Positions 4,440 through 30,403 of a DNA stretch of 64,000 nucleotides are shown in pieces. Location of the stretch: positions 32,001 to 96,000 of IMG/VR virus record IMGVR_UViG_3300023178_000017; one strand, written 5' to 3'. Under the pieces are notes generated by a model. The model was not told the DNA's origin, searched no databases, and worked only from the letters and a program-made list of their open reading frames with translations. Positions within the stretch are counted from its first letter, which is position 1. Every line of letters begins with the position of its first letter. A program made the position numbers and the translations under genes. The DNA is from a virus.

Positions 4440-5135
4440 TTATAGGATCAAGTTGCCGCTTTCGTCTATATCATACTCAAAATTTGAATCATTCCAACCA
4501 ATTCGTGAATTTTTATCATCCATGCAATTGACATCTAAATTAAAAGATATACTGTATCGATCTTTGTTTGTTAGATTGGGTTCGACCATATGCATTAACC
4601 CACTAGGAAAAATGTATAAGTGACCTGTCTTAGGTTGTATCTGATAAGATTCAATCATTCTATTGTTGCCAGGAAATGCTCCTGCAACTTTATGATTTGT
4701 ATCTATGAAAGTTAAATCGCCTTCGTCACCATCAGCATGTATATAAAATACACCTGAATAGAAACAACCATTGTGTAAGTGAGGTCTGTTCCATGCACCA
4801 TTGTCATTAATGTTAGCCCATGAGTTATGCATATCAACACGGTGTGCATCTTTGTTTAATCCCATGAAAGGTAATAACTCGTCTCTGACTAAACGTTTAA
4901 TTGATCTTATACATTTAATAAAAGTTGGATGTTGATCGCAACCATCATTTGATTGCCAACCTGTATATGCATTTGATATCTTTCGACCAACAGGATCTTT
5001 CTTTCGCATACCATCAATCTCTCTTTTTAAGAGATCAAAGTATTCTGCATTCATCAATGTAGGTTCTTTATCTGCATCTTTGCCTAAAAAATCTCTATGA
5101 AAAACAAATGCAGGAAATAATAATTTTACACTCAT
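4440..5135 (-). CDS. 2OG-Fe(II) oxygenase-like protein (TIGR02466-like)
   Basis: SWANIN...NRPHLH...YSGVFYI...LYIFPSGLMHMVEPN...RYSISFN. Confidence 0.85.
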   Translation of the reverse strand: MSVKLLFPAFVFHRDFLGKDADKEPTLMNAEYFDLLKREIDGMRKKDPVGRKISNAYTGWQSNDGCDQHPTFIKCIRSIKRLVRDELLPFMGLNKDAHRVDMHNSWANINDNGAWNRPHLHNGCFYSGVFYIHADGDEGDLTFIDTNHKVAGAFPGNNRMIESYQIQPKTGHLYIFPSGLMHMVEPNLTNKDRYSISFNLDVNCMDDKNSRIGWNDSNFEYDIDESGNLIL

Positions 5136-5980
5136 TCTTCTACCTCATTATGAAAAGGACATTCAGGTGGTGGTTCATCTTCTTTGAAGTATTTACCTTT
5201 TTCTTGCCAATAACCTTCGTTTCTATATGGCCCAAGTTTAGTTCCCCTTAGTCTTGATTCATCGGAGTATTCTCTTCTACCTTGTTCATCCATAGACATC
5301 ATTTCTGCATGTGAAGTTACTGAACTTCTGTTGTCCTGAAATTCTCTAGGACTACGTAATGTATACGTAGAATTCCATTCTTCTCTTTTAAAAGGAATAA
5401 CCTGACACAATGGTGTGCCTTTTTTTATAGTAAATGAATGATTAACTCTAGGATAAAAAATTATTTGTGAATTATCTTGGCTCACATTGAACTTATCTGT
5501 ATCGATAATTCCTTGCCATGTAGCAAAGTATCTATTTTGAAATAAGAAAGGGTCTAAGTAAAGACATGAATAACCCTCTGGTGTTATAATGTTCCATGGG
5601 TTTCTCATTTTAAATGCATCTTTGACAGGACCATCATCGCCAAAATAATCGAAAGCATTTTCAAATTGTTCTTTGGGGTGTGTAGGTGAAGCGTAATGTT
5701 CTCCTGAAGGATCGAAAGTTCTAACGTCTGTTGTACTTACACCGTCTTTTGCATTGTTACCTACGATAACTTCCATGTCTCTGTTTGCAAGTAGGTACCA
5801 ACCACTCTTTAACCAATCATCCATAGCAGGACATGCTCTGATAGTTTGAGTATTAACACCACGTACTACTGCATTTACTTTAATTCTTTTCCACCAATCT
5901 GGATGCCATTTCTTTGCAAGAACTGGTTTAAAGTCTCTGAGAGTCTTCTCGTTATATGTAATAAAGTCTATCGTTGGCAT
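5132..5980 (-). CDS. Conserved-looking phage hypothetical protein (CP...NPW..TP.GYS...GIIDTD...KKGTPL type)
   Basis: 282 aa ORF overlapping both neighbours; motif string typical of aquatic T4-like phage hypotheticals; function unknown. Confidence 0.6.
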   Translation of the reverse strand: MPTIDFITYNEKTLRDFKPVLAKKWHPDWWKRIKVNAVVRGVNTQTIRACPAMDDWLKSGWYLLANRDMEVIVGNNAKDGVSTTDVRTFDPSGEHYASPTHPKEQFENAFDYFGDDGPVKDAFKMRNPWNIITPEGYSCLYLDPFLFQNRYFATWQGIIDTDKFNVSQDNSQIIFYPRVNHSFTIKKGTPLCQVIPFKREEWNSTYTLRSPREFQDNRSSVTSHAEMMSMDEQGRREYSDESRLRGTKLGPYRNEGYWQEKGKYFKEDEPPPECPFHNEVEE

Positions 5981-6689
5981 TATAAAACTCTTCGCTAACT
6001 CCTATCTCTACTTCATCGCCTCTTAAAACAATTGATCTTCTATCCATGTATCTAGCAGTTTCATTTGGTGCATCTGCACCGTGTGGTATTCTGCCGTCAA
6101 ACATTACTAATCTATTTGGTACAAACTCCACTTCAGCGATTTGGTGGTTTTTAATATGTTCGTTTCTACCTTCTAAACCCTGTTGAGGTTCATCATATAA
6201 TCTTAATGTGCCACCCCATTCGGGATTCCAATATGTATTGTAATAGTATAAGAAAGATAAATTCCATGAATCATTAGTATCACAATCTGCATGAGTTGTT
6301 CCATGACAACCCATTGTCTGTGAGTTTAAACCCATGTACTGAAATCTTTTCCATTTGAAACCGAAATCTGTACATATTCTTCTATTTAGATAGTGAGCAG
6401 GATAAGAATCTTTCTTATCAATATCTCCTTCAACATTGTGAAATCCGAAATCTTTATTGTCCCGATCAGCCTTGAAGAAACTTGCACCCCAAAAACTATG
6501 GTGAGGTAATCCTGTTGGGCTTTCGCTACCCACTTGATTTGTTTTAGACCAAATATTACTGCTTGTAAATCTTTGATTAATCCAATGCCATATAGAAGTC
6601 TCTAAGTAATTATCAATTATGTAGACTTTATCTAAAGGTAATGATTGAATATGAAAAGGAGAATCAACCTTTTCTACAAGCAGGCTCAT
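5952..6689 (-). CDS. 2OG-Fe(II) oxygenase (prolyl-hydroxylase-like)
   Basis: HAD (HxD)...WNPEWGG.L...FVPNRLVMFDGRIPH...RRSIV. Confidence 0.85.
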   Translation of the reverse strand: MSLLVEKVDSPFHIQSLPLDKVYIIDNYLETSIWHWINQRFTSSNIWSKTNQVGSESPTGLPHHSFWGASFFKADRDNKDFGFHNVEGDIDKKDSYPAHYLNRRICTDFGFKWKRFQYMGLNSQTMGCHGTTHADCDTNDSWNLSFLYYYNTYWNPEWGGTLRLYDEPQQGLEGRNEHIKNHQIAEVEFVPNRLVMFDGRIPHGADAPNETARYMDRRSIVLRGDEVEIGVSEEFYNANDRLYYI

Positions 6690-6690
6690 T

Positions 6691-7260
6691 TTATGCTATT
6701 AATGACTTTTGAGGTGATGGAAAATTATTTGAATAATACTCAAAGTCTTGTAGTGTGTCTTCTCTTGTTTCGCCTATTTCATTACATACATTAACGTATA
6801 CATTCCATATAACGTCTGAATATTCCATAACTCTTCTTGCATCTGATCTTAAAGGGTGATTTGAGCCCTCTCTTCCTGCTATAGTTACTTCTAGTAAATC
6901 ACGGAAACCATATGCTTGTACTTGATCATCGATATAGTTTTGAGCCATATCAGATAGTTTGTTTGCATACTGATTGTTTAATGAAACACCAGCAGGTGGT
7001 TCAGACTGATTGATATATTCTTCGATAGCATCTATTTCATCTGAGTTTAGATTTATTTTGACCTGATCGTTAAAACATTTATCTTCTTCCCATTTCTCAA
7101 TTTTAACTTCGATGTCATCGTACACCAATACATCATATTCAAAACCAAGATTTGGTCTATCTGTGTTTTCGAAAGAGTATTCTAATCCATTTGGTTTTCT
7201 AATGATTAGATTACTGTTTTCATCATAAATTAACATATTCATAATTACCTCATTATACAC
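6691..7260 (-). CDS. Hypothetical acidic protein (possible fibre assembly chaperone)
   Basis: 189 aa ORF tightly packed in the operon; the chaperone role is only a positional guess. Confidence 0.55.
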   Translation of the reverse strand: MYNEVIMNMLIYDENSNLIIRKPNGLEYSFENTDRPNLGFEYDVLVYDDIEVKIEKWEEDKCFNDQVKINLNSDEIDAIEEYINQSEPPAGVSLNNQYANKLSDMAQNYIDDQVQAYGFRDLLEVTIAGREGSNHPLRSDARRVMEYSDVIWNVYVNVCNEIGETREDTLQDFEYYSNNFPSPQKSLIA

Positions 7261-7276
7261 TTGTGTGTGTTAAATT

Positions 7277-8881
7277 TCAAGAGACTTTATTCGCTCTCGC
7301 ATACGCTCTTTCATATACGTCTAACATATTTATATCACTGGTATCCATGTCTTTTATCCATGGGCCACCACGTGTCCAGTGAATTGCTAAAGCATGTGGT
7401 TTGTCTAAATGTGTTTCATATCCTTCAGTTATAATATGTCTAGGTGGTATTCTACTGATCTTGTCTGTCCATTCAAATTGATGTAAATACTTTCCTGACT
7501 CTGTATTCACTACTTCTGGTGTTAACTTCTTACAGTCTTCGTGTGCATTATTGAATACCATAAGACTAGACCACAATTTCTTAGGATAAGAAACATTCTT
7601 TTCGCCATCAAATTTAGTATCACTATGATTTTCGAAATCGTATTGTACACAAGCAATAGCATCTTTTGGGTCTAAGAAATAGAATAGTGGTAGTATAGAC
7701 TTACTAAACAATATGTCATCATCTAAGAAGATACTGAAACCTTCATAATTTTCTAGGTAAGGTATTAAGAATCTACTATATGTAAACTCTGTTGATTGAT
7801 TAGCATACTCTCTAGTGTATTCAGGTATCTTTGATACATCTAGTATCTTAATATTAGGTTGCCAGTCTTTTATAAATTCATACATGTCACCTTTACCAAA
7901 ACCATATTCAATTCCTTTTTGAAGCAACTTAACATTTGTTTCAGCAAGATCACCATGACGACTATCGTAACCCACATAGATTGATATAGGTTTGCCTTTT
8001 GCCATTTTCATAATGTTTTTATTGAAGTCTGTAACTGTACTTCTAAAACCGATATCAGCAAAAGCACTATGCATTTCTATAAAACCCTCTGTATATGTAA
8101 ATGAAAGATGTGTTGGTTTATCTTTCTTTTCAACAAAGGCTTTCCATAATTCAATTACTTGTTCAGCTGATAGAACTTCTGAATCAAATAAATCAAACTT
8201 ATCCCATACAAACATTTCCATATCTGGATCATCTATCATTTCAAATACTGCTGATCTTACAGAACCTGGATGTATTCTAAGAGTGTATCGTTCTTCTTCT
8301 GAAGAAGGTTTGTTCACTACACCTTGGATTGGATTCCAAAGGCCTTCATGTTTGATACTATCAATTAACCAGTGTGCTTTAGCACTGTGATAATAAGTTG
8401 AATTATTGATTTCTAATTGTCTTTCAGTTGGGCCTTCTGCACCAAAAACATATTTTGTATAGTCTGTTATCTTTTGATATTCATCATTTCGGTTTTTGAA
8501 ATCAAAGCCAGAATGACCAGGTATTGGTGTTTCAGGTTTTTCAGTATAACCGTACTGCAAATAATATTGATAGACATATGCTTGATGTTGTAATTGATTA
8601 AACGGTTGTAATTTTGTTGTATCAGAATAATCGTATAATCTTTCGTCTATCAATTTAGAAGCTTCTTTCCATTTAACATGCTTTAGTTTTGGTAATTTAT
8701 TCTTCATCAACCAATCTAAAGACTTATATGCTTCAGTTTCCTTGTAGTCTTTGGATAGTTCGATACTACCAATATGACAATGATCCATGAAAATGACTTC
8801 ATCGCCACTATCTGGCCCAAATGGTGATCTTCTATTTTGAAATGCTTCTTGTACGGCTTCTAAGGTTTCTAATTTTCTCAT
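7277..8881 (-). CDS. Fusion: N-terminal ParB/Srx-like domain plus C-terminal GT-A fold glycosyltransferase
   Basis: C-half IYVGYDSR...STEFTYSRFLIPYL...IFLDDD...YPKKLWSSLMVFN...LHQFEW...HWTRGGPW (GT8-like); N-half LIDSIKHEGLWNPIQG...IHPGSVR. Confidence 0.8.
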   Translation of the reverse strand: MRKLETLEAVQEAFQNRRSPFGPDSGDEVIFMDHCHIGSIELSKDYKETEAYKSLDWLMKNKLPKLKHVKWKEASKLIDERLYDYSDTTKLQPFNQLQHQAYVYQYYLQYGYTEKPETPIPGHSGFDFKNRNDEYQKITDYTKYVFGAEGPTERQLEINNSTYYHSAKAHWLIDSIKHEGLWNPIQGVVNKPSSEEERYTLRIHPGSVRSAVFEMIDDPDMEMFVWDKFDLFDSEVLSAEQVIELWKAFVEKKDKPTHLSFTYTEGFIEMHSAFADIGFRSTVTDFNKNIMKMAKGKPISIYVGYDSRHGDLAETNVKLLQKGIEYGFGKGDMYEFIKDWQPNIKILDVSKIPEYTREYANQSTEFTYSRFLIPYLENYEGFSIFLDDDILFSKSILPLFYFLDPKDAIACVQYDFENHSDTKFDGEKNVSYPKKLWSSLMVFNNAHEDCKKLTPEVVNTESGKYLHQFEWTDKISRIPPRHIITEGYETHLDKPHALAIHWTRGGPWIKDMDTSDINMLDVYERAYARANKVS

Positions 8882-8910: not shown

Positions 8911-10041
8911 TTATGACGTAATTGGAGATGCTGGCCACTGTTGTGACAATACACCGTCCCAACGATTCACTGGTGTTCTACCTTGTGTAGCGTAAGTACT
9001 TGGTGATCTATGTTGATAGGTAAACGGAGTTCTACCTTGTCTAGAATATGTACTTGGTGATCTATGTTGATAGGTAAACGGAGTTTGACCTTGTCTTGCA
9101 TATGTCACAGGTTGCCTATGTTGATATGTACTTGGCGATTGTGTTATTCTAGGATCTCTGTAAGTACTTGGTGATCTGTGTTGATATGTGCTAGGTACAC
9201 GATATGCTCTAGGATCTCTGTAAGTACTTGGTGATCTATGGTTATACGTGCTAGGTACTCTATAACTTCTTGGATCACGATATGTAGATGGTGATCTGTG
9301 TTGATATGTGCTAGGTACACGATATGATCTTGGGTCTTGATATGTAGACGGCGATCTATGTTGATATGTGCTAGGTACACGATATGATCTAGGATCACGG
9401 TATGTAAATGGCGATCTATGGTTATATGTAAACGGTGACCTATGTTGATACGTAAACGGTGATCTATGTTGATAAGTCGAAGGTTGTCTAGCGCCTCTAA
9501 TATTAGGTTCTTGTGCTGATACAGGGTGTCTGTAACCTGCTGGTTGTTGTGCTGATCTAATATTAGGTTCTTGTGCTGATACAGGGTGTCTATAACCTGC
9601 TGGTTGTCTAGCATTACCAATTACTGGTTGTTGTGCTGATACAGGTGCTCTATATGCTGCTGGTTGTCTAGCATTTCTAATATTAGGTTCTTGTGCTGAT
9701 CTGATATTAGGTTCTTGACCGCTTCTAATATTAGGTTCTTGTGCTGATCTAATATTAGGTTGTTGACCATTCGCAATATAAGGCGACTGGAAAGTAAACG
9801 GTTGCCTTGCGTTATTAGGTTGTTGAGCATTTGCAATATAAGGCGACTGGAAAGTAAACGGTTGCCTTGCGTTATTAGGTTGTCTAGCATTTGCAATATA
9901 AGGTGACTGATATGTAAATGGATTCTGGAATGTAAATGGATTCTGGAATGTAAATGGATTCTGGAAAGTAAAAGGTGTCTGCACAGGAACAGAAGCCTGT
10001 GTAATACCTTGAGCATTTGCTGGATAAAAACCTGTTGCCAT
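8911..10041 (-). CDS. Pro-punctuated repeat protein B (putative antiparallel partner of 10053-11828)
   Basis: Residues 23-356 are 47 units of 6, 8 or 10 aa (PFTFQN, PYIANARQ, PNIRSAQE, PSTYQHRS, PSTYRD, PRSYRV etc.). Confidence 0.85.
   Translation of the reverse strand: MATGFYPANAQGITQASVPVQTPFTFQNPFTFQNPFTFQNPFTYQSPYIANARQPNNARQPFTFQSPYIANAQQPNNARQPFTFQSPYIANGQQPNIRSAQEPNIRSGQEPNIRSAQEPNIRNARQPAAYRAPVSAQQPVIGNARQPAGYRHPVSAQEPNIRSAQQPAGYRHPVSAQEPNIRGARQPSTYQHRSPFTYQHRSPFTYNHRSPFTYRDPRSYRVPSTYQHRSPSTYQDPRSYRVPSTYQHRSPSTYRDPRSYRVPSTYNHRSPSTYRDPRAYRVPSTYQHRSPSTYRDPRITQSPSTYQHRQPVTYARQGQTPFTYQHRSPSTYSRQGRTPFTYQHRSPSTYATQGRTPVNRWDGVLSQQWPASPITS
8974..9975 (-). repeat. Coding tandem repeats (18/24/54/60-nt periods) of protein B
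   Basis: Near-identical 60-nt blocks visible at 9781-9900 and 9181-9420. Confidence 0.9.
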
Positions 10042-10052
10042 TTTACTTTAGA

Positions 10053-11828
10053 TTACTTAGGTGATGGTTTAAAGAAGAAGAAGTTGTGAGCTAATACACC
10101 ATTTGCAAAGAAATTGTGATTGTCGCCAACGTTCTTCAAGTTATACACCTGTTGTGAATCTTTCTCCTCTATTTTAATTATTTCTAGTCCTATTTCTGTA
10201 CCTAGTACAGCATCTGTCATGGTCATCAAATGATCACCGACTGCGATTTCTGAATTTACAAATTCATCTCCACCTTCTTCTTTGTGGAATTCTTTAAATT
10301 TCTCTAAGTTGATAACACCCCATTCACCATTCATTGTTCTAAATGGATGTTCTGAAGTTGTTTCAAGTATTCTACCGTCTGATAAATGTATCTCATGTAT
10401 TGATACTTCTCTTGGTTGCATCAACTCTTCGACTACACCGATCTCTAATTTATTTGTCTCTTCGTTCCAAGTCATTACGTCTTGACCAACTTCTACTGTT
10501 TCAATTGGTACATGACTGCCATCGCCCAACCATATCATTGTGCCGGCAACAAAACATCCTTTGCCACCTCCAGGAATGTTACCAGGTATTGGACCAAACG
10601 GTTGATAGAAGTACACTGCTGGGAAGATAAATGGATATCTTGCTGTTTGTTGTGTAGTACTTGGTTGCCTTGCGTTATTTGGTTGCCTTGCGTTGTTTGG
10701 TTGCCTTGCGTTATTAGGTTGTCTAGCAGCAACTGGTTGTCTTGCCTGATACGTAAACGGCGCACGGAATGTAAATGGAGTCCTTGCGTTATTAGGTTGT
10801 CTTGCCTGATACGTAAACGGCGCACGGAATGTAAATGGAGTCCTTGCGTTATTAGGTTGTCTTGCCTGATACGTAAACGGCGATCTATGGTTATACGTAA
10901 ACGGTGATCTGTGGTTATATGTAAACGGTGATCTGTGGTTATACGTATACGGTGATCTATGTTGATACGTAAATGGCACCCTATATGATCTTGGATCACG
11001 GTATGTAAATGGTGATCTGTACGCATACGTAAACGGTATCTGATATGATCTTGGATCACGGTATGTAAATGGTGATCTATGTTGATACGTAAATGGCACC
11101 CTATATGATCTTGGGTCTCTATATGTAAATGGTGACCTATGTTGATACGTAAACGGTGTTTGTGCGTTTCTGATATTTGGTTCTTGTGCAGACCTAATAT
11201 TTGGTTCTTGACCGCTTCTAATATTAGGCTCTTGAGCAGCAACTGGATGTTGATAAGATGCTGGTGTTTGTCTATTTCTTATAAACGGAGTCTGAGCACT
11301 TACAGGGTGATTATACCCAGCTGGTGTTTGTGCGTTTCTGATAAACGGATTCTGTGCATTAACAGGATGTTGATAAGAAGCAGGTTGTTGTGCGTTTCTG
11401 ATAAACGGATTCTGTGCATTTACTGGATGTCTATAGAATGCTGGTGTTTGTCTATTTCTTATAAACGGATTCTGTGCATTAACAGGATGTCTATATGATA
11501 CAGAGTTTTGTGCATTCGCAATATAAGGCGATTGAGCATTCGCAATATAAGGATACGGCTGTTGTGCATCTCTTATAAATGGATTCTGTCTATTAGCAAT
11601 ATAAGGATACGGCTGTTGTGCATCTCTTATAAATGGATTCTGTCTATTAGCAATATAAGGATATGGTTGTTGTGTAGGTTGTTGACCTGATGCGTTATTC
11701 CACCCACTAGGAGTTTTAATGTAAATTTGATCTACATCTTTCCAAGTGTTTGAAGCAGTTTTAACCCATGCACCTTGGGTTGAATTCCAACCTGAGGGGG
11801 TTTTTACTTTCTGTGAGCCTGTCGCCAT
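10053..11828 (-). CDS. Pro-punctuated repeat protein A with C-terminal Hint (intein-like) domain
   Basis: N-terminal triple x(V/I)KT..xW motif; residues 55-388 are 47 repeat units; residues 425-582 CFVAGTMI...TSEHPF...VYNL...HNFFANGVLAHN. Confidence 0.88.
   Translation of the reverse strand: MATGSQKVKTPSGWNSTQGAWVKTASNTWKDVDQIYIKTPSGWNNASGQQPTQQPYPYIANRQNPFIRDAQQPYPYIANRQNPFIRDAQQPYPYIANAQSPYIANAQNSVSYRHPVNAQNPFIRNRQTPAFYRHPVNAQNPFIRNAQQPASYQHPVNAQNPFIRNAQTPAGYNHPVSAQTPFIRNRQTPASYQHPVAAQEPNIRSGQEPNIRSAQEPNIRNAQTPFTYQHRSPFTYRDPRSYRVPFTYQHRSPFTYRDPRSYQIPFTYAYRSPFTYRDPRSYRVPFTYQHRSPYTYNHRSPFTYNHRSPFTYNHRSPFTYQARQPNNARTPFTFRAPFTYQARQPNNARTPFTFRAPFTYQARQPVAARQPNNARQPNNARQPNNARQPSTTQQTARYPFIFPAVYFYQPFGPIPGNIPGGGKGCFVAGTMIWLGDGSHVPIETVEVGQDVMTWNEETNKLEIGVVEELMQPREVSIHEIHLSDGRILETTSEHPFRTMNGEWGVINLEKFKEFHKEEGGDEFVNSEIAVGDHLMTMTDAVLGTEIGLEIIKIEEKDSQQVYNLKNVGDNHNFFANGVLAHNFFFFKPSPK
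10083..10556 (-). other. Hint / bacterial intein-like domain without endonuclease
   Basis: Cys1 (G|CFVAGT), block B TxxH (TSEH), terminal His-Asn; +1 residue is Phe. Confidence 0.88.
10665..11666 (-). repeat. Coding tandem repeats of protein A
   Basis: Exact 60-nt duplication at 10741-10860; 54-nt repeats near 11540-11660; 24-nt and 18-nt arrays. Confidence 0.9.
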
Positions 11829-11861: not shown

Positions 11862-14159
11862 TTATGAATAAAGAATCCATAGATCACCAACTGCTCCGTC
11901 ACCTGAAGTAGGTGCAGAAGTTGATTGATATATGTTTCTCGCAACACCACCACTATTTGAAGCGTATGATGTTGAAATTTGTGATGCTCTAAAGTTTGCG
12001 TCTGTTAATGTTAACGAACCTGTAGAAGCACCAGTTGCAGTTGTTGTAGCAACTACAAACTCATCAGCACTTTCGTCCCAACCCATAAATGCGTTGTCGC
12101 CAGTTGAACCTCTTTCTAACACAAGACCAAGGTCATTTGAGTTAGCACCTGTGTTACCAGACCCTAATTCAATCAATGCATCACTGATTGTTGTATTTGT
12201 AGAATCTACAGTTGATGTAGTACCATTAACTGTTAGGTTACCAGATAATGTTAAGTTACCAAATTGTACGTTACTTGTTGTAGCAACTGCCTGACCAATA
12301 CTTATTTCACCTGAACTAATTGAGACACCAGTTCCTGCACTAATATGACTTCTAACTTCTGAAGCGCTTGGGCCAGTATATGTGATTACACCAGTAGATG
12401 AATTGTATGCTAAACTTCCATCACCACCTGAATCAGTAACAGAGATTGAACCTCTTGCATCTGAATCAGCATATTGTGTAATTGTTGTTGCAAGTGTTAA
12501 GGTACCATTTACATCATCGTATGTTGATGTGATGCCTGTACCTGCTGTTACTAAAGCATTTACTCTGTCATCAACTCTTTCGTCTGTGAAGTATAAGTTT
12601 GATGAACCTTCTGTTAACGAATCTGTATCTGGTAATAATGCATTAACTCTAGCATCTGCTCTAGCGTTTGTAAAGTAAAGGTTTGAACCTTCTGAAATAT
12701 GAGCAGTTGTTGAAGGTATTGTAATAGCACCTGTACTTGAATCATATGCACCTGCACCAGAGTTTGTACTTAGAGATGCTCTTGCTCTAGCATCTGTATA
12801 GAATAAGTTTGTTGAACCTTCTGTAATGTCATCTGAATCACCACTTAGTTCACTTAATGCATCTGCTGTATCTACTTGTGCATCAACATAAGTTTTGACT
12901 GCTAACTGAGAAGGTACTAAAGTATCTGAAGCACTACCAAAATTAACATCTGTATCGATTGCATTTTGAACTCTAGCGTCTGCTCTTGCATTTGTAAAGT
13001 ATAAGTTTGTAGAGCCTTCTGTTATTTCATCTGTATTGTCTTTACTTGCGACTTGTGAATCTACATATGCTTTAACTGATTGTTGAGAAGGTATTCTTGT
13101 TTCACTATTAGACACCATATTATCTTCATCGATAAGAGCTGCTGTGATTCTAGCATCTGCTCTAGCGTCAGTGAAATATAAGTTTGAACCTTCTGCTAAA
13201 TCACCAGTGTCATGGTTAGCAATACTAGTAACTGTACCAGTTACGTTACCAGTTAAGTTTCCTTCGAATGTTCCTGCAACAAAAGTTTCTGAACCGACTG
13301 TCCATTTATCGTTGGTCTCATCCCATAAGAATGTTTTTGCAGTTGAACTACCTCTAGTTACACTCAAACCAGCATCTTCTGTTGGTGAACCTGAAGTAAA
13401 GTTACTGTTTAATGCGATTGTGTTGTCTGCAAGGTTAATTGTCTCTGAGTTTACAGTTGTTGTTGTACCTGAAACTGTTAGTGAACCTGAGATTGTAACA
13501 TCATCGTTAAGTGAAATAACACCATTTCCGTTACCACTCAATACTAAGTTAGTATCAGCTGATCTGGACACGATTTGATCAACTGCAATATTGTTACTAA
13601 ATGTGATGTTGTTTCCTGCACTGTTGGTAATATTGTTACCGTCTTCGATTTGAACTGGACCTTTAAGTGCAATAACACCTGATCCTGTTGCATCTAACTC
13701 TAAATCACCAGAACCACTTGTCTGTATAGACATGTTTTGGTTAGAGTCAGCACTAAAGACGATTGTACCTGAGTCATCTGAAATAACCTGTTGTCCGTTA
13801 ACATATAAAGAACCAGGTCCAACGTATACGTCTTTCCATGTTCTACTTGATGAACCTAAGTCGTATGTGTTATCTGCGCTTGGTATGATGTTACCTGCAA
13901 ATGTACCACCACCTAAGTATGATAATACATCTGAGTCGCCGTATTGGGCTGCACCTGCGATTGTTAGTGTGTTAGCAGAATCATCGTATGTTAATGTGAT
14001 GCCTGTACCTGCTGTTAAAAGTTGAGCGACTCTATCGTCTACTGACTCATCTAATGCTGATGCTGAAATTGAACCAACGTATGATCCAGAAGAGCTAATA
14101 ACCTCTGTTCCACCGATTGACAGGCCGTTTTTAATATTAAAATTCTTTTCCCCTGCCAT
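11862..14159 (-). CDS. Tail fibre-like protein
   Basis: Gly/Ser/Thr/Asp-rich; five EG(S/T)xNLYFTxxR repeats; GNLTVNGT motifs; C-terminal APTSGDGAVGDLWILYS. Confidence 0.75.
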   Translation of the reverse strand: MAGEKNFNIKNGLSIGGTEVISSSGSYVGSISASALDESVDDRVAQLLTAGTGITLTYDDSANTLTIAGAAQYGDSDVLSYLGGGTFAGNIIPSADNTYDLGSSSRTWKDVYVGPGSLYVNGQQVISDDSGTIVFSADSNQNMSIQTSGSGDLELDATGSGVIALKGPVQIEDGNNITNSAGNNITFSNNIAVDQIVSRSADTNLVLSGNGNGVISLNDDVTISGSLTVSGTTTTVNSETINLADNTIALNSNFTSGSPTEDAGLSVTRGSSTAKTFLWDETNDKWTVGSETFVAGTFEGNLTGNVTGTVTSIANHDTGDLAEGSNLYFTDARADARITAALIDEDNMVSNSETRIPSQQSVKAYVDSQVASKDNTDEITEGSTNLYFTNARADARVQNAIDTDVNFGSASDTLVPSQLAVKTYVDAQVDTADALSELSGDSDDITEGSTNLFYTDARARASLSTNSGAGAYDSSTGAITIPSTTAHISEGSNLYFTNARADARVNALLPDTDSLTEGSSNLYFTDERVDDRVNALVTAGTGITSTYDDVNGTLTLATTITQYADSDARGSISVTDSGGDGSLAYNSSTGVITYTGPSASEVRSHISAGTGVSISSGEISIGQAVATTSNVQFGNLTLSGNLTVNGTTSTVDSTNTTISDALIELGSGNTGANSNDLGLVLERGSTGDNAFMGWDESADEFVVATTTATGASTGSLTLTDANFRASQISTSYASNSGGVARNIYQSTSAPTSGDGAVGDLWILYS

Positions 14160-18938: not shown

Positions 18939-19868
18939 CTAATTATTTAATTGGGAATATGGGACTTTTGTATGTATTTTTTCTACTGTAGTTGGATCAG
19001 TTTTTACGTATGCTTCTTCTAATTGTTTTACAGTACCGTCTGCATCTTTAACATAAACTTGTTTAACTTCTGCTACAGGACCTATAGGTCTTCTGCTAGA
19101 ATATGTTATCTGATATGTAAATGGTGATCTATGTTGATATGTAGTTTGTACAACAATGTTACCACTTCTTGTATTCTGAGCATTTGCAATATATGGTGAA
19201 GGTTGAGAAGCAGAAACCCTATATGTATCTGGCGATCTATGTTGATACGTAAATGGTATTCTATGTTGATAGAACGATGGTGATCTATGTTGATACGTAA
19301 ATGGTGTTCTACCTGTTGTAGGATATGTTATAGGTTGCCTATGTTGATATGTTGTTGGTGTTCGCCCTGTTGCCTGATATGTTGAAGGCTGTCTTGCATC
19401 TCTAATAAATGGATTCTGTCTATCAACAGGATGTCTGTAAGTTGTAGGTGAAGGTTTATTTCTTATAAACGGATTCTGTTTATTTACAGGATGTCTGTAA
19501 TTAGCTGATATACGATAGCTACCAATTATCGGATTCTGTCTGTTAACAGGATGTTGATAAGCTGCTGGTTGACGTTGATTTGCAACATAAGGTGATGGTC
19601 TATTTCTAATAAACGGATTCTGTTGTTGTGCAATGTATGGTGATTGAAATGGACTTCTTGCGATAGCAGCTGTCTGTGCGTTTGCTATGTAAGGAATAGG
19701 CACTCTAGTATTAGCAACTGTCTGAGCGTTTGCTGATGCACGGGCATTAGCAATGTACGGCACAGGCGTAGTACCGTTAGTAGAATTTTGTCTATTAGCA
19801 ATATAAGGATACGGCTGTTGTCCTGGCGTTGCGTTTGAATTGCTATATGTTACTTGTACGGTTGGCAT
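18939..19868 (-). CDS. Pro-punctuated repeat protein D (putative antiparallel partner of 19870-21534)
   Basis: Residues 19-260 use the same unit vocabulary as proteins A/B; C-terminal VYVKD...AYVKT motifs. Confidence 0.85.
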   Translation of the reverse strand: MPTVQVTYSNSNATPGQQPYPYIANRQNSTNGTTPVPYIANARASANAQTVANTRVPIPYIANAQTAAIARSPFQSPYIAQQQNPFIRNRPSPYVANQRQPAAYQHPVNRQNPIIGSYRISANYRHPVNKQNPFIRNKPSPTTYRHPVDRQNPFIRDARQPSTYQATGRTPTTYQHRQPITYPTTGRTPFTYQHRSPSFYQHRIPFTYQHRSPDTYRVSASQPSPYIANAQNTRSGNIVVQTTYQHRSPFTYQITYSSRRPIGPVAEVKQVYVKDADGTVKQLEEAYVKTDPTTVEKIHTKVPYSQLNN

Positions 19869-19869
19869 T

Positions 19870-21534
19870 TTATACTATTATTGGCCCCCCACTACCTGCA
19901 TTATATGCTGCTCTTAAACTTATGGGGCTTGATGACCAAGAACCGTTGAAGTATGAAGCTATATGAAAATATGTATAATAAGTGTCTGTGCCTTTTGTTG
20001 CTTTTATTCCAAAATAAACATCATTTGATGTTAATTGTACTGGATTACCTGTGCTGTCGTATACACCCCACTTAAAAAATCTAGCAGTGCGAGTACCATT
20101 AAATCCACCCCTTGAAGTTGAACCAGACCAGAAATTATAATATTGGCCTCTGGTTTTTCCACAAACATGTGGATAAAATCCATAACTGTTTCCACCTCCT
20201 CCGTAACAATTTGTTTGAGCTTGAGTACCTGATACCGATTCACCACTTGCATAATATGCTACATCAAAATTCCAAGTATCGTCAATTATACCATTAGCAT
20301 TCAAATCGGTAATAGGCATATAAAATCTATAATAAAAACTCCAACCACTATTACTAAAAGAGTTATAATGACCATACGATATTCTAAAAGCCCCTAAAGG
20401 ATTTGTCTGAACAGTATTATTGTTAGCTGCAAAATCAAATTGCATATAACAACCACATTCGGTATGATTAAAACCAGGATTACCAGTTGCTAATTGAAGA
20501 GTATTCCAACTTGGTACACTAAACATAGAAGCAGTTCCTGAAGGTGGGTCAGAATTTATATAATTCGTACTACCACCAAAAGGATATACATCCCAAACAG
20601 GATTACTTATACCTGAGCCCCAAGGTTGAGGGTTCGGTTGATTAGCTAAAGTTGCACTTGTTGCTGTTGAACTTCCAGACAGTGCTGATTCGCCTACAAT
20701 ACCTTCATATGATGTTGGTACCTGAGCAGTCGATGGTGACTGATATATGTAAGGCGTTTGGCCTTGTGCTGAATAAGTCGAAGGCGATTGATAAATGTAA
20801 GGCGATGGTCTTTGCGCCTGATACGTAAACGGATTTTGATAAATCGATGGCACCCTATATGTTTGAGGACTTCTTTGTTGTGCTTGATAAGTTGAAGGCA
20901 CTCTATAAGGTACAGGTTGTTGATTTGACTCCTGTGCGTTTATATTTGCTGGTGACTGGTGTTGATACGTAGTAGGTTGTTGTGCCTGATATGTTACAGG
21001 ATTTCTGTAACTTCTTGGGTCACGATATGTACTAGGTGATCTATAAGCATAACTTACAGGATTTCTGTAACTTCTTGGGTCACGATATGTACTAGGTGAT
21101 TGATGTTGATACGCAACTATAACCTGTGCATTTCTTGGGTCTCTATAAGTTGAAGGACTTTGATGTTGATACGTAAACGGTGTTTGTGCGTTTGCAGGAT
21201 ACGGATACGGATTCTGTCTATTAGCAATATAAGGTGATTGTGCATCGGCCTGATAAGTATACGTTTGTTGTGCGTTTCTTATAAAAGGATTTTGTCTCGA
21301 TCTTATGTTAGGTTGCTGTGCGTTTCTTATAAAAGGATTTTGCCTATTAACAGGATTTCGATAAATTATTGGTTGTTGATTCTGATAAGTCGAAGGAGAC
21401 TGAAACGTATAAGGAACAATCGATGGTTGTTGTCTTATATTTGGTTCTTGAATGTTAGCAGGTTGCCTTGCTATGTAAGGTTGCTGAAAACTACCGCCAT
21501 TTAAATTGTGTTTAATGTAAATTTTATCTGCCAT
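19870..21534 (-). CDS. Pro-punctuated repeat protein C with C-terminal globular (putative receptor-binding) domain
   Basis: N-terminal KIYIKH; residues 19-260 repeats; about 280 aa aromatic/Gly/Asn-rich non-repetitive C-terminus. Confidence 0.85.
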   Translation of the reverse strand: MADKIYIKHNLNGGSFQQPYIARQPANIQEPNIRQQPSIVPYTFQSPSTYQNQQPIIYRNPVNRQNPFIRNAQQPNIRSRQNPFIRNAQQTYTYQADAQSPYIANRQNPYPYPANAQTPFTYQHQSPSTYRDPRNAQVIVAYQHQSPSTYRDPRSYRNPVSYAYRSPSTYRDPRSYRNPVTYQAQQPTTYQHQSPANINAQESNQQPVPYRVPSTYQAQQRSPQTYRVPSIYQNPFTYQAQRPSPYIYQSPSTYSAQGQTPYIYQSPSTAQVPTSYEGIVGESALSGSSTATSATLANQPNPQPWGSGISNPVWDVYPFGGSTNYINSDPPSGTASMFSVPSWNTLQLATGNPGFNHTECGCYMQFDFAANNNTVQTNPLGAFRISYGHYNSFSNSGWSFYYRFYMPITDLNANGIIDDTWNFDVAYYASGESVSGTQAQTNCYGGGGNSYGFYPHVCGKTRGQYYNFWSGSTSRGGFNGTRTARFFKWGVYDSTGNPVQLTSNDVYFGIKATKGTDTYYTYFHIASYFNGSWSSSPISLRAAYNAGSGGPIIV

Positions 21535-21535
21535 A

Positions 21536-23443
21536 TCATATCACAAACCATAAATGTCCAACTTCTTTACCTGTACCACTTGGTGTACCAGATAGTGAAG
21601 AAGCACTAACAACTTCATAATCTAACTCAACATCATCGCCGTCTAATTTAACACCGTTTGATGTGTTCACTGATAAAGTAGCAACACCATCTAATGAATC
21701 ACCTGAAGAACCTGCGTTATAAGATTTCGCAAGACCTGAACCAGCAGATATGACACTATTTACTCTATCATCTGTAAAGTATTTATTAGTTTGTTCTGAT
21801 ATAGAATCGGTACCTGTTGAGTTATCTGCAACTTGTAAATCACCATTAGAATCAAATACTAGTATTTGACCAGCAGATGCACTAGATGTACTACCTACAT
21901 CTGTTAAATCAGATATAGCAGAGTTCATTGTTGTGTTTATTGATACATTGCCTTTAGCAGTCTGTGTGACTGAACCTGTAACTGCACCAGTCAATGAAAA
22001 GTCTGAATTATCTAAAACTAAATCTAAAGTATTATCTGAGTCATCATAGGTAACTGAAAGACCTGATTCAGTGTTTGAACTAATCATTGTACCGACTGTG
22101 TCAGCAATTCTTTCTACAATGTCATCAACTACAAAACTAGAACCGTTGTACTTAAGAACACTATTAGTATTTGCGCCACTTGTATTTACATCTGAAAGAT
22201 CATCGATACTAGCAGCTGCGATTCTAGCGTCTGCTCTACCGTCTGTATAATAAAGATTAGAACTTCCTTCTGTTAAATCATCAGTGTCATGGTTTGATAA
22301 ACTTGAAACTGTACCTGTAAGATGTCCTGTTGATACATTTAAAACTGTTGTTGAACCGTCTGCTGTAATTGTAGATAATCTTGCAGTAGCATCGGTACCA
22401 TTTGTACCGTTATCGATGATTGTTTGACCACCACTTGATAGAACATCACCTTTTAGATTACCATTAAAAGTAGTTGCAGTCATGTCTGTTGCATGAATGT
22501 TCTGCCATTTTAGTATACTACTTCCAAGTTCGTGTGTGTTGTTAGCACTTGGTAAAACATCTGAGTCTATTGAACCTGTGAATGATATTGTATCACTAGA
22601 TGCGTTACCTAAATCGATGTTACAATTCAGTGATGATAATCCATTAACTGTTAAAGCGCCAGTAGTTGTAACTGTTGAGGCATTTAAATCACCGCCTGTA
22701 AGTGTTGCAGTTCCATCACTCAATGTACCCACGTTGACTGTTGCGCTAAAGTTTGCATTTACACCACCAGTAATACTACCTGAGTTGATACTCATGGTGC
22801 TATCAGTAATTGTAGGCGCAGTCATTACACCGCCTGTTGTGATTGTTATATCATCTTCTGCAAATGTTTTACCTGCAAGTTGAATGTTGAAACCAGTCTC
22901 TAATTCTGTTGTGTTATTTGTGTTTGAAGCATTAAGAATAACACCATTTGAGTTGTTGTTAAAGATTGAGTTTGTATCTGATAACTGCCAGTATGAAGCA
23001 CCTGTACTTGCTAATGCAGTACCTAAGTATGAACCTGTGTAAGAATATAGAACGAATCTATCGCCATTTGATAAACCAGAACCGTATGTAGCACCTTGTA
23101 AGTTAATTCTTCCATAACTACCATCTGAATTTTGGCTAGTGATCTGATAGTCTATACCTTCTATTAAGTGAGAACCGTTGACAAAGACCTGAATTCGGTC
23201 TTGTACAAATTTCATCACATTGTTAAACTGATCAGCGCCTTCGAAATGCGTTTCACCACCAGTTGCAATATACACATACTCTTGGAAGTAAAATGCTTTA
23301 TCTTCTACACTATTAACAGCGTCAACTAAAGTTGCTTGAGCAGTAGTTCTAAGACCACTAATATCACCCACGTCATTAGCCAACACATTATATTGTTGTC
23401 TAAAATTTTCTATAGTACTGAAACTGTCTACTGTTTTAGCCAT
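21536..23443 (-). CDS. Tail fibre-like protein
   Basis: LTEGSSNLYYTDGRADAR repeat; N-terminal DVGDISGL.T....LVDAVN; C-terminal PSGTGKEVGHLWFVI similar to the 11862-14159 C-terminus. Confidence 0.72.
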   Translation of the reverse strand: MAKTVDSFSTIENFRQQYNVLANDVGDISGLRTTAQATLVDAVNSVEDKAFYFQEYVYIATGGETHFEGADQFNNVMKFVQDRIQVFVNGSHLIEGIDYQITSQNSDGSYGRINLQGATYGSGLSNGDRFVLYSYTGSYLGTALASTGASYWQLSDTNSIFNNNSNGVILNASNTNNTTELETGFNIQLAGKTFAEDDITITTGGVMTAPTITDSTMSINSGSITGGVNANFSATVNVGTLSDGTATLTGGDLNASTVTTTGALTVNGLSSLNCNIDLGNASSDTISFTGSIDSDVLPSANNTHELGSSILKWQNIHATDMTATTFNGNLKGDVLSSGGQTIIDNGTNGTDATARLSTITADGSTTVLNVSTGHLTGTVSSLSNHDTDDLTEGSSNLYYTDGRADARIAAASIDDLSDVNTSGANTNSVLKYNGSSFVVDDIVERIADTVGTMISSNTESGLSVTYDDSDNTLDLVLDNSDFSLTGAVTGSVTQTAKGNVSINTTMNSAISDLTDVGSTSSASAGQILVFDSNGDLQVADNSTGTDSISEQTNKYFTDDRVNSVISAGSGLAKSYNAGSSGDSLDGVATLSVNTSNGVKLDGDDVELDYEVVSASSLSGTPSGTGKEVGHLWFVI

Positions 23444-23654
23444 TTATTTTCTCTTCTATCTTTCTAAGAAGTTCCTTAACTTCGGTTACTTCTTGTCTTA
23501 AACTATTTATTTCCTTTTTCTGAGAAGCAATGATTTGTCTTCTTCTCATTACCAATTTAAACTGTTCAACATCTGTATTGATAATTGCTTGTGAACTTTC
23601 TTCTCTAATTAGATTTGAATGTCCTTCAACCTTTATCATGCTAATGCTATACAT
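23436..23654 (-). CDS. Small coiled-coil hypothetical protein
   Basis: [18 protein letters not shown]...[16 protein letters not shown]; overlaps both neighbours; true start may be Met6 (23639). Confidence 0.7.
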
Positions 23655-29600: not shown

Positions 29601-30403
29601 TTAGATAATGTAAGATCAAATTTTAATCTATCGGCACCAGGCGCATTATCGTTTGATGAGCCTTGTGCATTGTCTAAGAGACTATTATCTTCTGTTGATG
29701 ATATGATAGTTTCATTGATAGAAAGACCAACTCTATATGAAGGATTACCTGCATATTTTTCTAATACGATAAGTTGTTTGTCTACCTTTACAAAGAAACC
29801 TCTTGTAAAAACTACACCTTCTGAAATTTCTGCAATTGAAGCACGACCAGTTGGTGTTGATGATTGTGATAATGTTTTAAAGTAGTTGTTGTTTGTTGCT
29901 ACAGCAGAAGTTGATCCAAAACCGTCAGCTGAGAATTCTACTTCTCTTATTTCTTCTGAACCTTTGAATATAAAAGAACCATCGCTGTCTGTACCTTGTG
30001 ATAATGCTTTTACAAATAGTGTTATAGAATCATCTTCAGTTTCAGCAGTTGATGAAATAACTTTTGCTACTACACCTGTTGTTAAACCTTGAATGAGTTT
30101 GCCGTGAAAACTAGTTCTATAAGATTCTACGTTTAGATCGCCGTTTGCATTTGGATTTGAATTTTGTACTTTGACAAAATAGATGTCCATGTCAATGTTT
30201 GACTGAGCACCTGAAACAATAGAACCTTCTTTAAAGAAATGATCACCAAATTTCTCTACCTGATCTTGTAGAATAGATTGAGTTTGAGTTAACTCTCTCG
30301 CTTGAATTGGTCGACCAGCACGATACAGAACTTTATGAAATTTCTTGTCTGCATCGTAATCATCGTAATATGGTGTAATATTTAGATCCGTTTTCTCTGA
30401 CAT
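23636..30403 (-). CDS. Large virion structural protein (VrlC / DUF4815-like)
   Basis: [35 protein letters not shown]; APGADR; LARRTFD..GDF; [11 protein letters not shown]; DPLAESF. Confidence 0.85.
25570..25812 (-). repeat. Pro-Thr/Ser low-complexity linker (about 80 aa)
   Basis: [33 protein letters not shown]...PIPSPPP. Confidence 0.9.

What the first reader, a model, noticed from the sequence alone, without database searches (positions are those of the whole stretch)
8911..11828. Two adjacent repeat proteins are unit-for-unit mirror complements: a candidate antiparallel protein duplex with its own pairing code
SEEN: cutting protein A (10053-11828, residues 55-388) at its prolines gives 47 units with lengths 10,8,10,8,10,8,(6,6,8)x4,6,6,8,8,8,8,6,6,8,6,6,8,6,6,8,8,8,8,8,6,6,8,6,6,8,6,6,6,6. 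PY-PY is counted as one 10-mer and one boundary has Ser in place of Pro. Protein B (8911-10041, residues 23-356) read from C- to N-terminus gives the same 47 lengths; both tracts are 334 aa. Aligned units are not identical but follow a fixed rule: P(F/N)IRxxQx opposite PxTY(Q/N)HRS; PV(N/S)AQx opposite PxTYRD; PAxYxH opposite PRSYRV; PNNARx opposite PFTFxx; PYIANxxQ opposite PxTYQxRQ; PYPYIANxQx opposite PxTYxxQGxT. The rule holds whichever chain carries which motif (polarity switches at unit 23/24). All units have even length, as beta-strand alternation would need. INFERENCE: A and B zip into a long antiparallel two-chain beta-ribbon, roughly 100-115 nm if fully extended, forming a distal tail-fibre extension. 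The irregular 6/8/10 barcode would fix register and partner choice. Well-characterised phage fibres are mostly parallel homotrimers; I know of no description of a sequence-complementary heterodimeric fibre.
Basis: partly seen in the sequence, partly recalled or inferred. Interest (0 to 1): 0.97.

Follow-up and report, generated by a model that had tools for sequence, protein, structure and literature searches.

The report
Mirror-coded two-protein phage fibre shaft
Two neighbouring genes of an uncultured marine T4-like phage encode proline-punctuated repeat proteins that match unit for unit, in length and in opposite type, when one is read backwards; about forty related gene pairs keep this rule, so the two chains very probably pair head-to-tail into a long thin fibre shaft, a design I found described nowhere.

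Summary
A (10053-11828, minus strand) and B (8911-10041, minus strand) each carry a 334-residue tract of 47 units of 6, 8 or 10 residues. A read N-to-C equals B read C-to-N exactly. Opposed units are of opposite class: 39 small-residue against aromatic, 7 Tyr against Tyr, 1 irregular.

It is not chance and not a DNA or RNA palindrome. In 41 distinct homologous gene pairs from viral metagenomes the barcodes differ, with about 26 to 73 units, yet the cognate pairs stay mirrored. A pairing matrix learnt without the window aligns A43-391 to B369-21 with no gap.

The conserved ends (A head, B tail) fall together next to a conserved carrier-fibre C-terminus. The variable ends fall together at the tip. 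A second pair in the window (D/E) follows the same code, and relatives of it exist as single fold-back chains.

Best reading: an antiparallel, in-register beta-strand duplex forming a fibre shaft. Stoichiometry is open: one duplex, or three as in the T4 gp37 needle. Structure predictors gave nothing, and binding is not shown experimentally.

A ends in a non-splicing, BIL-type Hint domain.

This scan had already found the same kind of pair on other genomes. I found no published description.

The parts
10053..11828 (-). Gene A, 591 aa: head, repeat tract, linker, Hint domain
   Evidence: ORF list; translation
11667..11828 (-). A head, residues 1-54 (MATGSQKVKTPSGW..AWVKT..IYIKTPSGWNN); the conserved proximal end
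   Evidence: Nearly invariant in all related loci. It follows directly on the conserved carrier C-terminus.
10665..11666 (-). A repeat tract, residues 55-388: 47 units of 6, 8 or 10 residues, net charge +33
   Evidence: The mirror alignment to B has no gap.
10557..10664 (-). A distal linker, residues 389-424: aromatic-rich then Gly-rich, ending GGGKG
   Evidence: A homologues without a tip domain end in similar Tyr/Phe-rich then Gly-rich segments.
10083..10556 (-). Hint (bacterial intein-like) domain, residues 425-582: Cys425, TSEH 491-494, His581-Asn582, then Phe583 and only 9 residues in all after Asn582
   Evidence: Pfam Hint families just below their cut-offs. Best solved relative is 2LWY, a bacterial intein-like domain, E 6e-6. 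Residues read.
8911..10041 (-). Gene B, 376 aa
9976..10041 (-). B N-terminal 22 residues (variable distal end, lies beside A's C-terminal part)
   Evidence: Variable among loci. Position follows from the mirror alignment, where A residue i faces B residue 412-i.
8974..9975 (-). B repeat tract, residues 23-356: 47 units, the mirror of A's, net charge +32
8914..8973 (-). B tail, residues 357-376 (PVNRWDGVLSQQWPASPITS); conserved proximal end
   Evidence: The pattern PV(I/A)RWDG.L.Q.WP.TP..S is conserved in all loci.
11862..14159 (-). Carrier fibre protein, 765 aa, ending ...DGAVGDLWILYS; probable attachment site of the A head and B tail
   Evidence: Similar to cyanophage structural and fibre proteins. 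The C-terminal motif is conserved upstream of A in every locus checked.
19870..21534 (-). Gene D, 554 aa: second long chain (head MADKIYIK, repeat tract about 19-290, C-terminal globular part of about 260 aa)
   Evidence: Mirror alignment D65-264 to E215-16, 81 bits against 25 forwards.
18939..19868 (-). Gene E, 309 aa: second short chain with tail ...VEKIHTKVPYSQLNN
   Evidence: The same head and tail occur on the single-chain relatives P0083 and P0061.
21536..23443 (-). Gene C, 635 aa: second carrier fibre, ending ...GHLWFVI

Best explanation
A and B are the outgoing and returning halves of a fibre shaft that is split into two genes.

The two 334-residue tracts lie antiparallel and in register as continuous beta strands, with A residue i beside B residue about 412-i. 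Every unit between two prolines faces a unit of the same length in the partner.

One face of the ribbon (even unit positions) carries all the aromatic residues of class b units (Phe, Tyr, His). These face the Ala/Gly and polar residues of class a units, a large-against-small complement. PxxYxx units face each other, Tyr to Tyr. The other face (odd positions: Pro, Ile/Thr, Asn/Gln, Gln/Arg) is nearly invariant.

Because all units are even in length, every proline falls on the same edge and face of the strand. A continuous two-stranded ladder is therefore possible.

The irregular order of 6-, 8- and 10-residue units allows one register only. It also separates this pair from the second pair (D/E) made in the same cell.

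The conserved A head and B tail meet at the proximal end and dock on the conserved C-terminus of the 765-aa carrier fibre. A's variable C-terminal part and B's N-terminus form the distal tip. Here that part is a non-splicing Hint domain, which probably cuts itself off at Gly424/Cys425.

Shown: the mirror, the class and parity rules, their co-variation, the co-location of conserved ends, and single-chain relatives of the sister pair.

Inferred: beta conformation, direct contact, docking on the carrier, Hint self-cleavage. The number of duplexes per fibre is open. I lean to three, because the carrier is of a kind that is trimeric in known phages (my own knowledge).
For: Exact mirror in the window.

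Mirror kept through different barcodes in 41 distinct pairs. Unit numbers of A and B correlate, r 0.85 over 37 complete pairs. Apparent outliers align without gaps at residue level, for example L020 A43-569 to B538-12.

Class complement: 983 a:b and 57 g:g of 1119 unit pairs.

A matrix trained without the window gives A:B 501 bits with 0 gaps in mirror, against 28 forwards.

Only even positions co-vary with even positions. The strongest cells lie at i+j = L+2 in 6-, 8- and 10-mers.

Side-chain volumes of opposed even positions are anticorrelated, r -0.26 to -0.44. Odd positions opposed in the same (P:P) register are not (r 0.06).

Aromatic residues: 418 at even positions, 1 at odd. Pro spacings: 4100 even, 164 odd.

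Conserved head, tail and carrier C-terminus against variable tips.

The single chains P0083 and P0061 carry a D-type head and an E-type tail. Arm 24-158 mirrors arm 432-298 with 0 gaps, 138 bits, against at most 62 for unit-shuffled arms.

There is no DNA complementarity that could produce the mirror.
Against: No experiment and no confident structure model exists.

Both tracts are strongly basic (+33 and +32, with almost no acidic residues). A bare duplex would carry about +65, which calls for counter-charges or a partner.

The exact register is fixed only to an even offset. Co-variation favours Pro opposite Pro, while the volume anticorrelation is somewhat stronger two residues off.

Co-variation among repeat units can partly reflect joint duplication history rather than contact.

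Each chain also has a partial self-complementary stretch (A 137-297, 201 bits; B 92-294, 209 bits), so hairpins or homodimers could compete.

Two loci (L018, L065) show an A and a B of unequal length. This could be repeat collapse in assembly or real mismatch.
Confidence: 0.8

Rival explanations
1. The pair binds antiparallel but forms a compact stack (a beta-solenoid or cross-beta arrangement). Each unit would be one rung with proline at the corners. The object would then be several times shorter than an extended ribbon.
For: Proline-delimited short units recall the strand-plus-corner units of phage triple beta-helices (my own knowledge). Nothing measured here gives the physical length.
Against: In a stack, neighbours along the axis come from successive units of the same chain. 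Here those differ in length and class. The strict even-length rule and the period 2 running through the prolines are needed for a continuous strand, not for rungs with corners. The co-variation is between opposed units of the two chains.
Confidence: 0.08
2. A and B do not touch each other. Both line up, in opposite directions, on a third periodic partner (the carrier fibre, a host polymer or nucleic acid), and that partner imposes the shared unit order.
For: Both tracts are very basic and could bind a polyanion.
Against: A common template would call for like units at the same place. The data show strict opposite classes, volume anticorrelation, and co-variation between the two chains. The carrier varies from about 300 to 1300 aa without relation to tract length. 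Single-chain forms keep the two arms in one molecule.
Confidence: 0.05
3. Each chain folds back on itself or forms homodimers through its self-complementary middle. The A-to-B mirror would be a by-product of shared block structure.
For: Partial self-mirror in A (137-297, 201 bits) and in B (92-294, 209 bits).
Against: The hetero alignment is full-length and scores 2.4 to 2.5 times higher (501 bits, 349 residues, no gap). A's barcode is not palindromic: self-mirror edit distance is 16-26 in all loci, against 0-8 to the cognate B. The block numbers of A and B are matched crosswise in every locus.
Confidence: 0.04
4. The mirror is made at nucleic-acid level (an inverted repeat, antisense origin, or an mRNA hairpin) or by mis-assembly, and has no meaning for the proteins.
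For: Long open frames exist on all frames and both strands of the repeats.
Against: The best ungapped reverse-complement identity between the tracts is 34%, against a mean of 25%. All blastn matches between A and B are plus/plus. The antisense frames do not encode Pro-periodic units. The mirror recurs in dozens of independent assemblies.
Confidence: 0.01

Closest known systems
Needle (domains D10-D11) of the T4 long-tail-fibre tip protein gp37
   Same: A thin distal fibre part in which strands run out to the tip and back. D10 is built from residues 811-881 and 1010-1026 of one chain. A Gly in one strand packs against a Phe of another subunit (PMC6957217), which is a large-against-small contact like a6 Ala/Gly against b4 Tyr here. 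Relatives of the sister pair here are likewise single fold-back chains.
   Different: gp37 is one gene and a homotrimer. Its stem is held by seven iron ions bound to His residues. The tracts here have no HxH motif and no sequence similarity to any fibre family. They are 5-10 times longer, are split into two genes, and follow a unit code with a variable barcode.
Streptococcal antigen I/II stalk
   Same: A long stalk made by two different repeat regions that run antiparallel and pair along their length, with functional domains at the far end.
   Different: There an alpha-helix pairs with a polyproline-II helix within one chain. Here both partners have Pro every 6-10 residues and a strict period of 2, which points to strands. 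They are two chains, and either chain can carry either unit class.
Antiparallel coiled-coil arms (SMC/Rad50 type) and heterospecific coiled coils (my own knowledge)
   Same: Long two-stranded antiparallel rods whose register and partner choice are written in a residue code.
   Different: Those are alpha-helical heptad codes. Here proline-punctuated strands carry a unit-length barcode.
Bacterial intein-like (BIL) Hint domains, for A's C-terminal domain only
   Same: Cys at position 1, TxxH, terminal His-Asn, and no nucleophile at +1. BIL domains sit in variable regions of non-conserved proteins and cleave rather than splice (PMC7765530). The best solved relative is a BIL domain, 2LWY.
   Different: It sits at the tip of a phage fibre chain. 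Pfam scores are just below the cut-offs. Only 12 of 41 A homologues carry it.

Membership tests
T4 gp37-type fold-back needle | One chain runs out to the tip and back | tested here: not met
   A and B are separate genes on different frames. Single-chain forms exist only for relatives of the D/E pair. None was found for the A/B type.
T4 gp37-type fold-back needle | His-x-His motifs that bind iron along the stem | tested here: not met
   No HxH in either tract.
T4 gp37-type fold-back needle | Sequence similarity to gp37 or other fibre families | tested here: not met
   No Pfam or PHROG family matches B or the tract of A.
T4 gp37-type fold-back needle | Homotrimer, six strands in cross-section | not testable with these tools
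   The complex predictor gave no verdict and was run 1:1 only.
Hint / bacterial intein-like domain (A residues 425-582) | N-terminal Cys, block B TxxH, C-terminal His-Asn | tested here: met
   Cys425, TSEH 491-494, His581-Asn582. Alignment to 2LWY.
Hint / bacterial intein-like domain (A residues 425-582) | Score above a family's curated cut-off | tested here: inconclusive
   Intein_splicing scores 33.3 bits against a cut-off of 35.8. Four other Hint families match weakly. phmmer against PDB gives 2LWY at E 6e-6.
Splicing intein | Cys/Ser/Thr at +1 and a downstream extein to ligate | tested here: not met
   +1 is Phe583 and 9 residues in all (583-591) follow Asn582.
Collagen-like triple helix | Gly at every third residue | tested here: not met
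   2 and 9 Gly in the 334-residue tracts, with no GxyGxyG.
Parallel homotrimeric beta fibres (triple beta-helix, triple beta-spiral) | Identical chains in parallel register | tested here: not met
   The forward comparison fails (edit distance about 17-28; 28 bits). The mirror comparison succeeds.
Cementoin repeat (PF10511) | Score above cut-off; Gln/Lys transglutaminase substrate repeats | tested here: not met
   24.1 bits against a cut-off of 27. There is no Lys in the tracts.
T4-like phage fibre gene module | Position among fibre genes upstream of neck genes gp13-gp14-gp15 | tested here: met
   gp14 and gp15 Pfam hits. Synteny is kept in about 75 loci. Same layout as in Prochlorococcus phage P-HM1.

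The most novel reading that the evidence does not exclude
Nature has a protein analogue of a nucleic-acid duplex. Two different beta strands hundreds of residues long find each other and set their register through a small alphabet of complementary units: large against small, Tyr against Tyr, and lengths 6, 8 or 10. Phages would lengthen, shorten and diversify the fibre by matched changes in two genes. Orthogonal barcodes would let several such duplexes assemble in one cell without cross-pairing.
Probability: 0.6. Interest if true: 0.95.

Novelty: categorically new. Interest (0 to 1): 0.9.

Why it matters
Known phage fibres are parallel homotrimers, or fold-back parts of one chain. A heteromeric fibre whose two chains are sequence-complementary, with a readable pairing code and a length barcode, would be a new principle of fibrous-protein assembly.

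It would explain how an abundant group of marine phages tunes fibre length and swaps tips.

It would give structural biology a long, register-defined two-chain beta structure to study.

It would offer a natural set of orthogonal, programmable strand pairs for protein nanomaterials.

The prediction is directly testable: co-expression, electron microscopy for length against unit number, and cross-linking following i+j near 412.

Tried and rejected
Complex prediction of A 1-400 with B 1-376: no verdict, ipSAE 0.00, partner pLDDT under 50. This is neither for nor against binding.

AlphaFold2 without alignment on D's C-terminal part (pLDDT 35) and on the self-complementary piece A 137-297 (pLDDT 51, no secondary structure): unusable, so no fold search was run.

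blastn and tblastn of A and B against 50,697 phage records: no relative. The two weak hits are low-complexity matches. No cultured phage with this pair was found. The nearest cultured relatives of the neighbouring genes are cyanomyoviruses at 35-45% identity.

DNA or RNA palindrome: rejected.

Search for single-chain A-B fusions. The long hits were either A/D-type chains with extra tip domains or unrelated low-complexity proteins (P0162, P0163, P0238). Only D/E-type single chains were found.

Public runs. Salt-marsh and marine metagenome unitigs match at 99% or more but break inside the repeats, so they do not independently confirm unit order. Pieces of both genes occur in metatranscriptome libraries, which is at most a weak hint of expression, since DNA can be present in such libraries.

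Literature searches found no description of such a pair.

A functional link between the fibre pair and the downstream glycosyltransferase and oxygenase genes could not be tested. All loci belong to one syntenic lineage.
Full report
**What is there.** On the minus strand lie a 765-aa fibre-like protein (11862-14159), A (10053-11828, 591 aa), B (8911-10041, 376 aa) and a 534-aa protein with a glycosyltransferase part. Further downstream come two 2OG-Fe(II) oxygenases and the T4-type neck and sheath-stabiliser genes gp14 and gp15. The contig is a 105-kb piece of an uncultured T4-like phage. Neighbouring genes resemble cyanomyovirus genes at 35-45% identity.

**The observation.** Cutting at proline gives 47 units in A residues 55-388. 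This requires merging three PY dipeptides and reading one Ser as a boundary. B residues 23-356 also give 47 units. The unit lengths of A from N to C equal those of B from C to N exactly.
- The 47 opposed unit pairs are 39 a:b, 7 g:g and 1 irregular.
- Class a units have small or polar residues at even positions (PVNAQx, PNNARx, PxIRxxQx, PYIANxxQ, PYPYIANxQx).
- Class b units are PxT(Y/F)-type. Class g units are PxxYxx.
- No shuffle came close. The minimum edit distance was 10 for unit shuffles and 7 for block shuffles, 20,000 each, against 0 observed.

**Not a nucleic-acid effect.** The two tracts show no reverse complementarity. The best ungapped value is 34% against a mean of 25%, and all blastn matches are plus/plus.

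**Relatives.** A scan of viral contigs with B returned 77 loci, which hold 41 distinct barcode pairs.
- Barcodes differ widely, from about 26 to 73 units. Each A still equals its own B read backwards.
- Edit distance is 0 in L001, L039 and L047 and at most 8 in most loci. Read forwards it is about 20.
- The cognate B is the best of all Bs for 25 of 41 A's.
- Unit numbers correlate with r 0.85, and counts of super-blocks agree.
- The outliers I re-examined were parser artefacts or cut ORFs. At residue level L020 aligns A43-569 to B538-12 without a gap. L018 and L065 remain length-mismatched and may be collapsed assemblies.
- Over 1119 aligned unit pairs from 25 loci, 983 are a:b, 57 g:g, 7 a:a and 2 b:b. 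Both chains carry both classes.

**Cross-validation.** A residue-pair matrix learnt from the other loci aligns the window's A43-391 to B369-21 with 501 bits and no gap. The forward score is 28 bits.

**Geometry from sequence.**
- Pro-Pro spacings are even 4100 times and odd 164 times.
- Aromatic residues sit at even unit positions 418 times and at odd positions once. Ala/Gly are also mostly even.
- Within a:b pairs only even positions co-vary with even positions. The strongest cell is at i+j = L+2 in 6-, 8- and 10-mers, which puts Pro opposite Pro.
- Side-chain volumes of opposed even positions are anticorrelated: r -0.26 in that register and -0.44 two residues off. Odd positions in that register are not.
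- So the parity is firm, but the register is known only to within two residues.
- My reading: continuous strands in a two-stranded ladder. One face carries the large-against-small complement. All prolines lie on one edge, where a missing NH costs nothing. That last point rests on general beta-sheet geometry and is my inference.

**Polarity of the fibre.** The A head and the B tail are nearly invariant in all loci. A's C-terminal part and B's N-terminus vary.
- The carrier protein upstream always ends ...DGAVGD(L/M)W(I/V)LYS, directly before A's start.
- The conserved ends therefore meet at the carrier and the variable ends at the tip, as antiparallel pairing requires.
- A's C-terminal part takes three forms among the 41 A's: absent, an unrelated domain of about 140 aa, or a Hint domain in 12.

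**The Hint domain.** Residues 425-582 have Cys1, TSEH and terminal His-Asn, followed by Phe and 9 residues in all.
- Pfam Hint families score just below their cut-offs.
- The best solved relative is a bacterial intein-like domain, 2LWY.
- Such domains cleave rather than splice (PMC7765530).
- I infer self-removal at Gly424/Cys425. A transfer of the thioester to B's N-terminus is conceivable but untested.

**Second pair and single chains.** The window holds a second trio: C (21536-23443), D (19870-21534) and E (18939-19868).
- D65-264 mirrors E215-16 at 81 bits, against 25 forwards.
- P0083 and P0061 are single chains of about 485 aa. They carry a D-type head (MADEIYIN) and an E-type tail (..VEKIHQSVP).
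- Arm 24-158 of P0083 mirrors arm 432-298 without a gap: 138 bits, against 16 forwards and at most 62 for unit-shuffled arms. About 140 non-repeat residues lie between the arms.
- These are natural fold-back forms of the same design.
- Cross-scores are low (A:E 60, D:B 93), so the barcodes keep the two pairs apart.

**Open points.**
- Both tracts are very basic (+33 and +32) and lack Lys, Leu, Met, Trp and Cys. What balances the charge is unknown.
- Each chain has a partial self-complementary middle.
- Structure predictors gave nothing.
- Stoichiometry is untested. The T4 gp37 needle is a trimer whose chains run out and back, with a Gly-Phe contact between strands and iron bound by His (PMC6957217). 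It is the nearest known object, but its defining features are not met here.

**Known or new.** Five literature searches found no such pair. All homologues are unnamed metagenome proteins. Earlier notes of this scan describe the same kind of pair on other genomes. I used them as leads and re-tested the points listed under earlier findings.

**Verdict.** Antiparallel in-register pairing is strongly supported by comparative evidence. The physical structure, chain number and function at the tip remain to be shown.

Noticed in passing
window 18939-23443 (-): A second trio with the same layout: carrier fibre C (635 aa, ends GHLWFVI); long chain D (554 aa) with a C-terminal part of about 260 aa of no known family; short chain E (309 aa). 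D and E follow the same mirror code, but less regularly.
   Followed up: partly
P0083, P0061: Single-chain relatives of the D/E type: head, arm, a middle part of about 140 aa, mirror arm, tail.
   Followed up: partly
window 4440-8881 (-): Directly downstream of B lie a 534-aa protein with a weak GT8 (glycogenin-type) match, a 189-aa protein, a 2OG-Fe(II) oxygenase, a 282-aa protein and a second 2OG-Fe(II) oxygenase. The order is kept in about 75 loci. They might modify the Pro/Tyr/Thr/Arg-rich tracts, but synteny within one lineage cannot show this.
   Followed up: partly
window 11862-11900 and 11667-11828 (-): The carrier ends in GDLWILYS, and A begins with two ..W(V/I)KT..GW strands. Together they resemble one strand-hairpin motif split over two genes. 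This may be how the shaft is clipped to the carrier.
   Followed up: partly
A residues 137-297; B residues 92-294: Each chain is partly self-complementary around its class switch (201 and 209 bits). Transient hairpins or homodimers are therefore possible before the partner is found.
   Followed up: partly
L018 and L065 against L020: Near-identical phages in which one gene of the pair is 44 or 88 residues shorter than the mirror requires. This is either collapsed repeats in assembly or real mismatched pairs.
   Followed up: no
P0005 (490 aa): A relative whose first 265 residues are self-mirror-complementary (275 bits), followed by a globular C-terminal part. It may be another topology or a truncated gene on a 1.9-kb contig.
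   Followed up: no
P0121-P0125: D-type chains of 660-695 aa with tract, globular part, an acidic stretch, and then a Hint domain beginning CCVHE and lacking the terminal His-Asn. Hint domains therefore recur at the distal end of the long chains in several forms.
   Followed up: no
window 23636-30403 (-): A 2255-aa ORF directly upstream of the second trio. It was not examined.
   Followed up: no
window 9144-11498, both strands: Long open frames in other frames and on the plus strand inside the repeats (for example 10535-11242 minus, 10482-10907 plus). They are a by-product of stop-poor repeat composition and show no periodic proline pattern.
   Followed up: yes
window 8911-11828 in public runs: The stretch occurs at 99% identity or more in salt-marsh metagenomes of 2018 (several studies, possibly one campaign) and in part in marine metagenomes of 2024. 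Pieces also occur in salt-marsh metatranscriptome libraries.
   Followed up: partly
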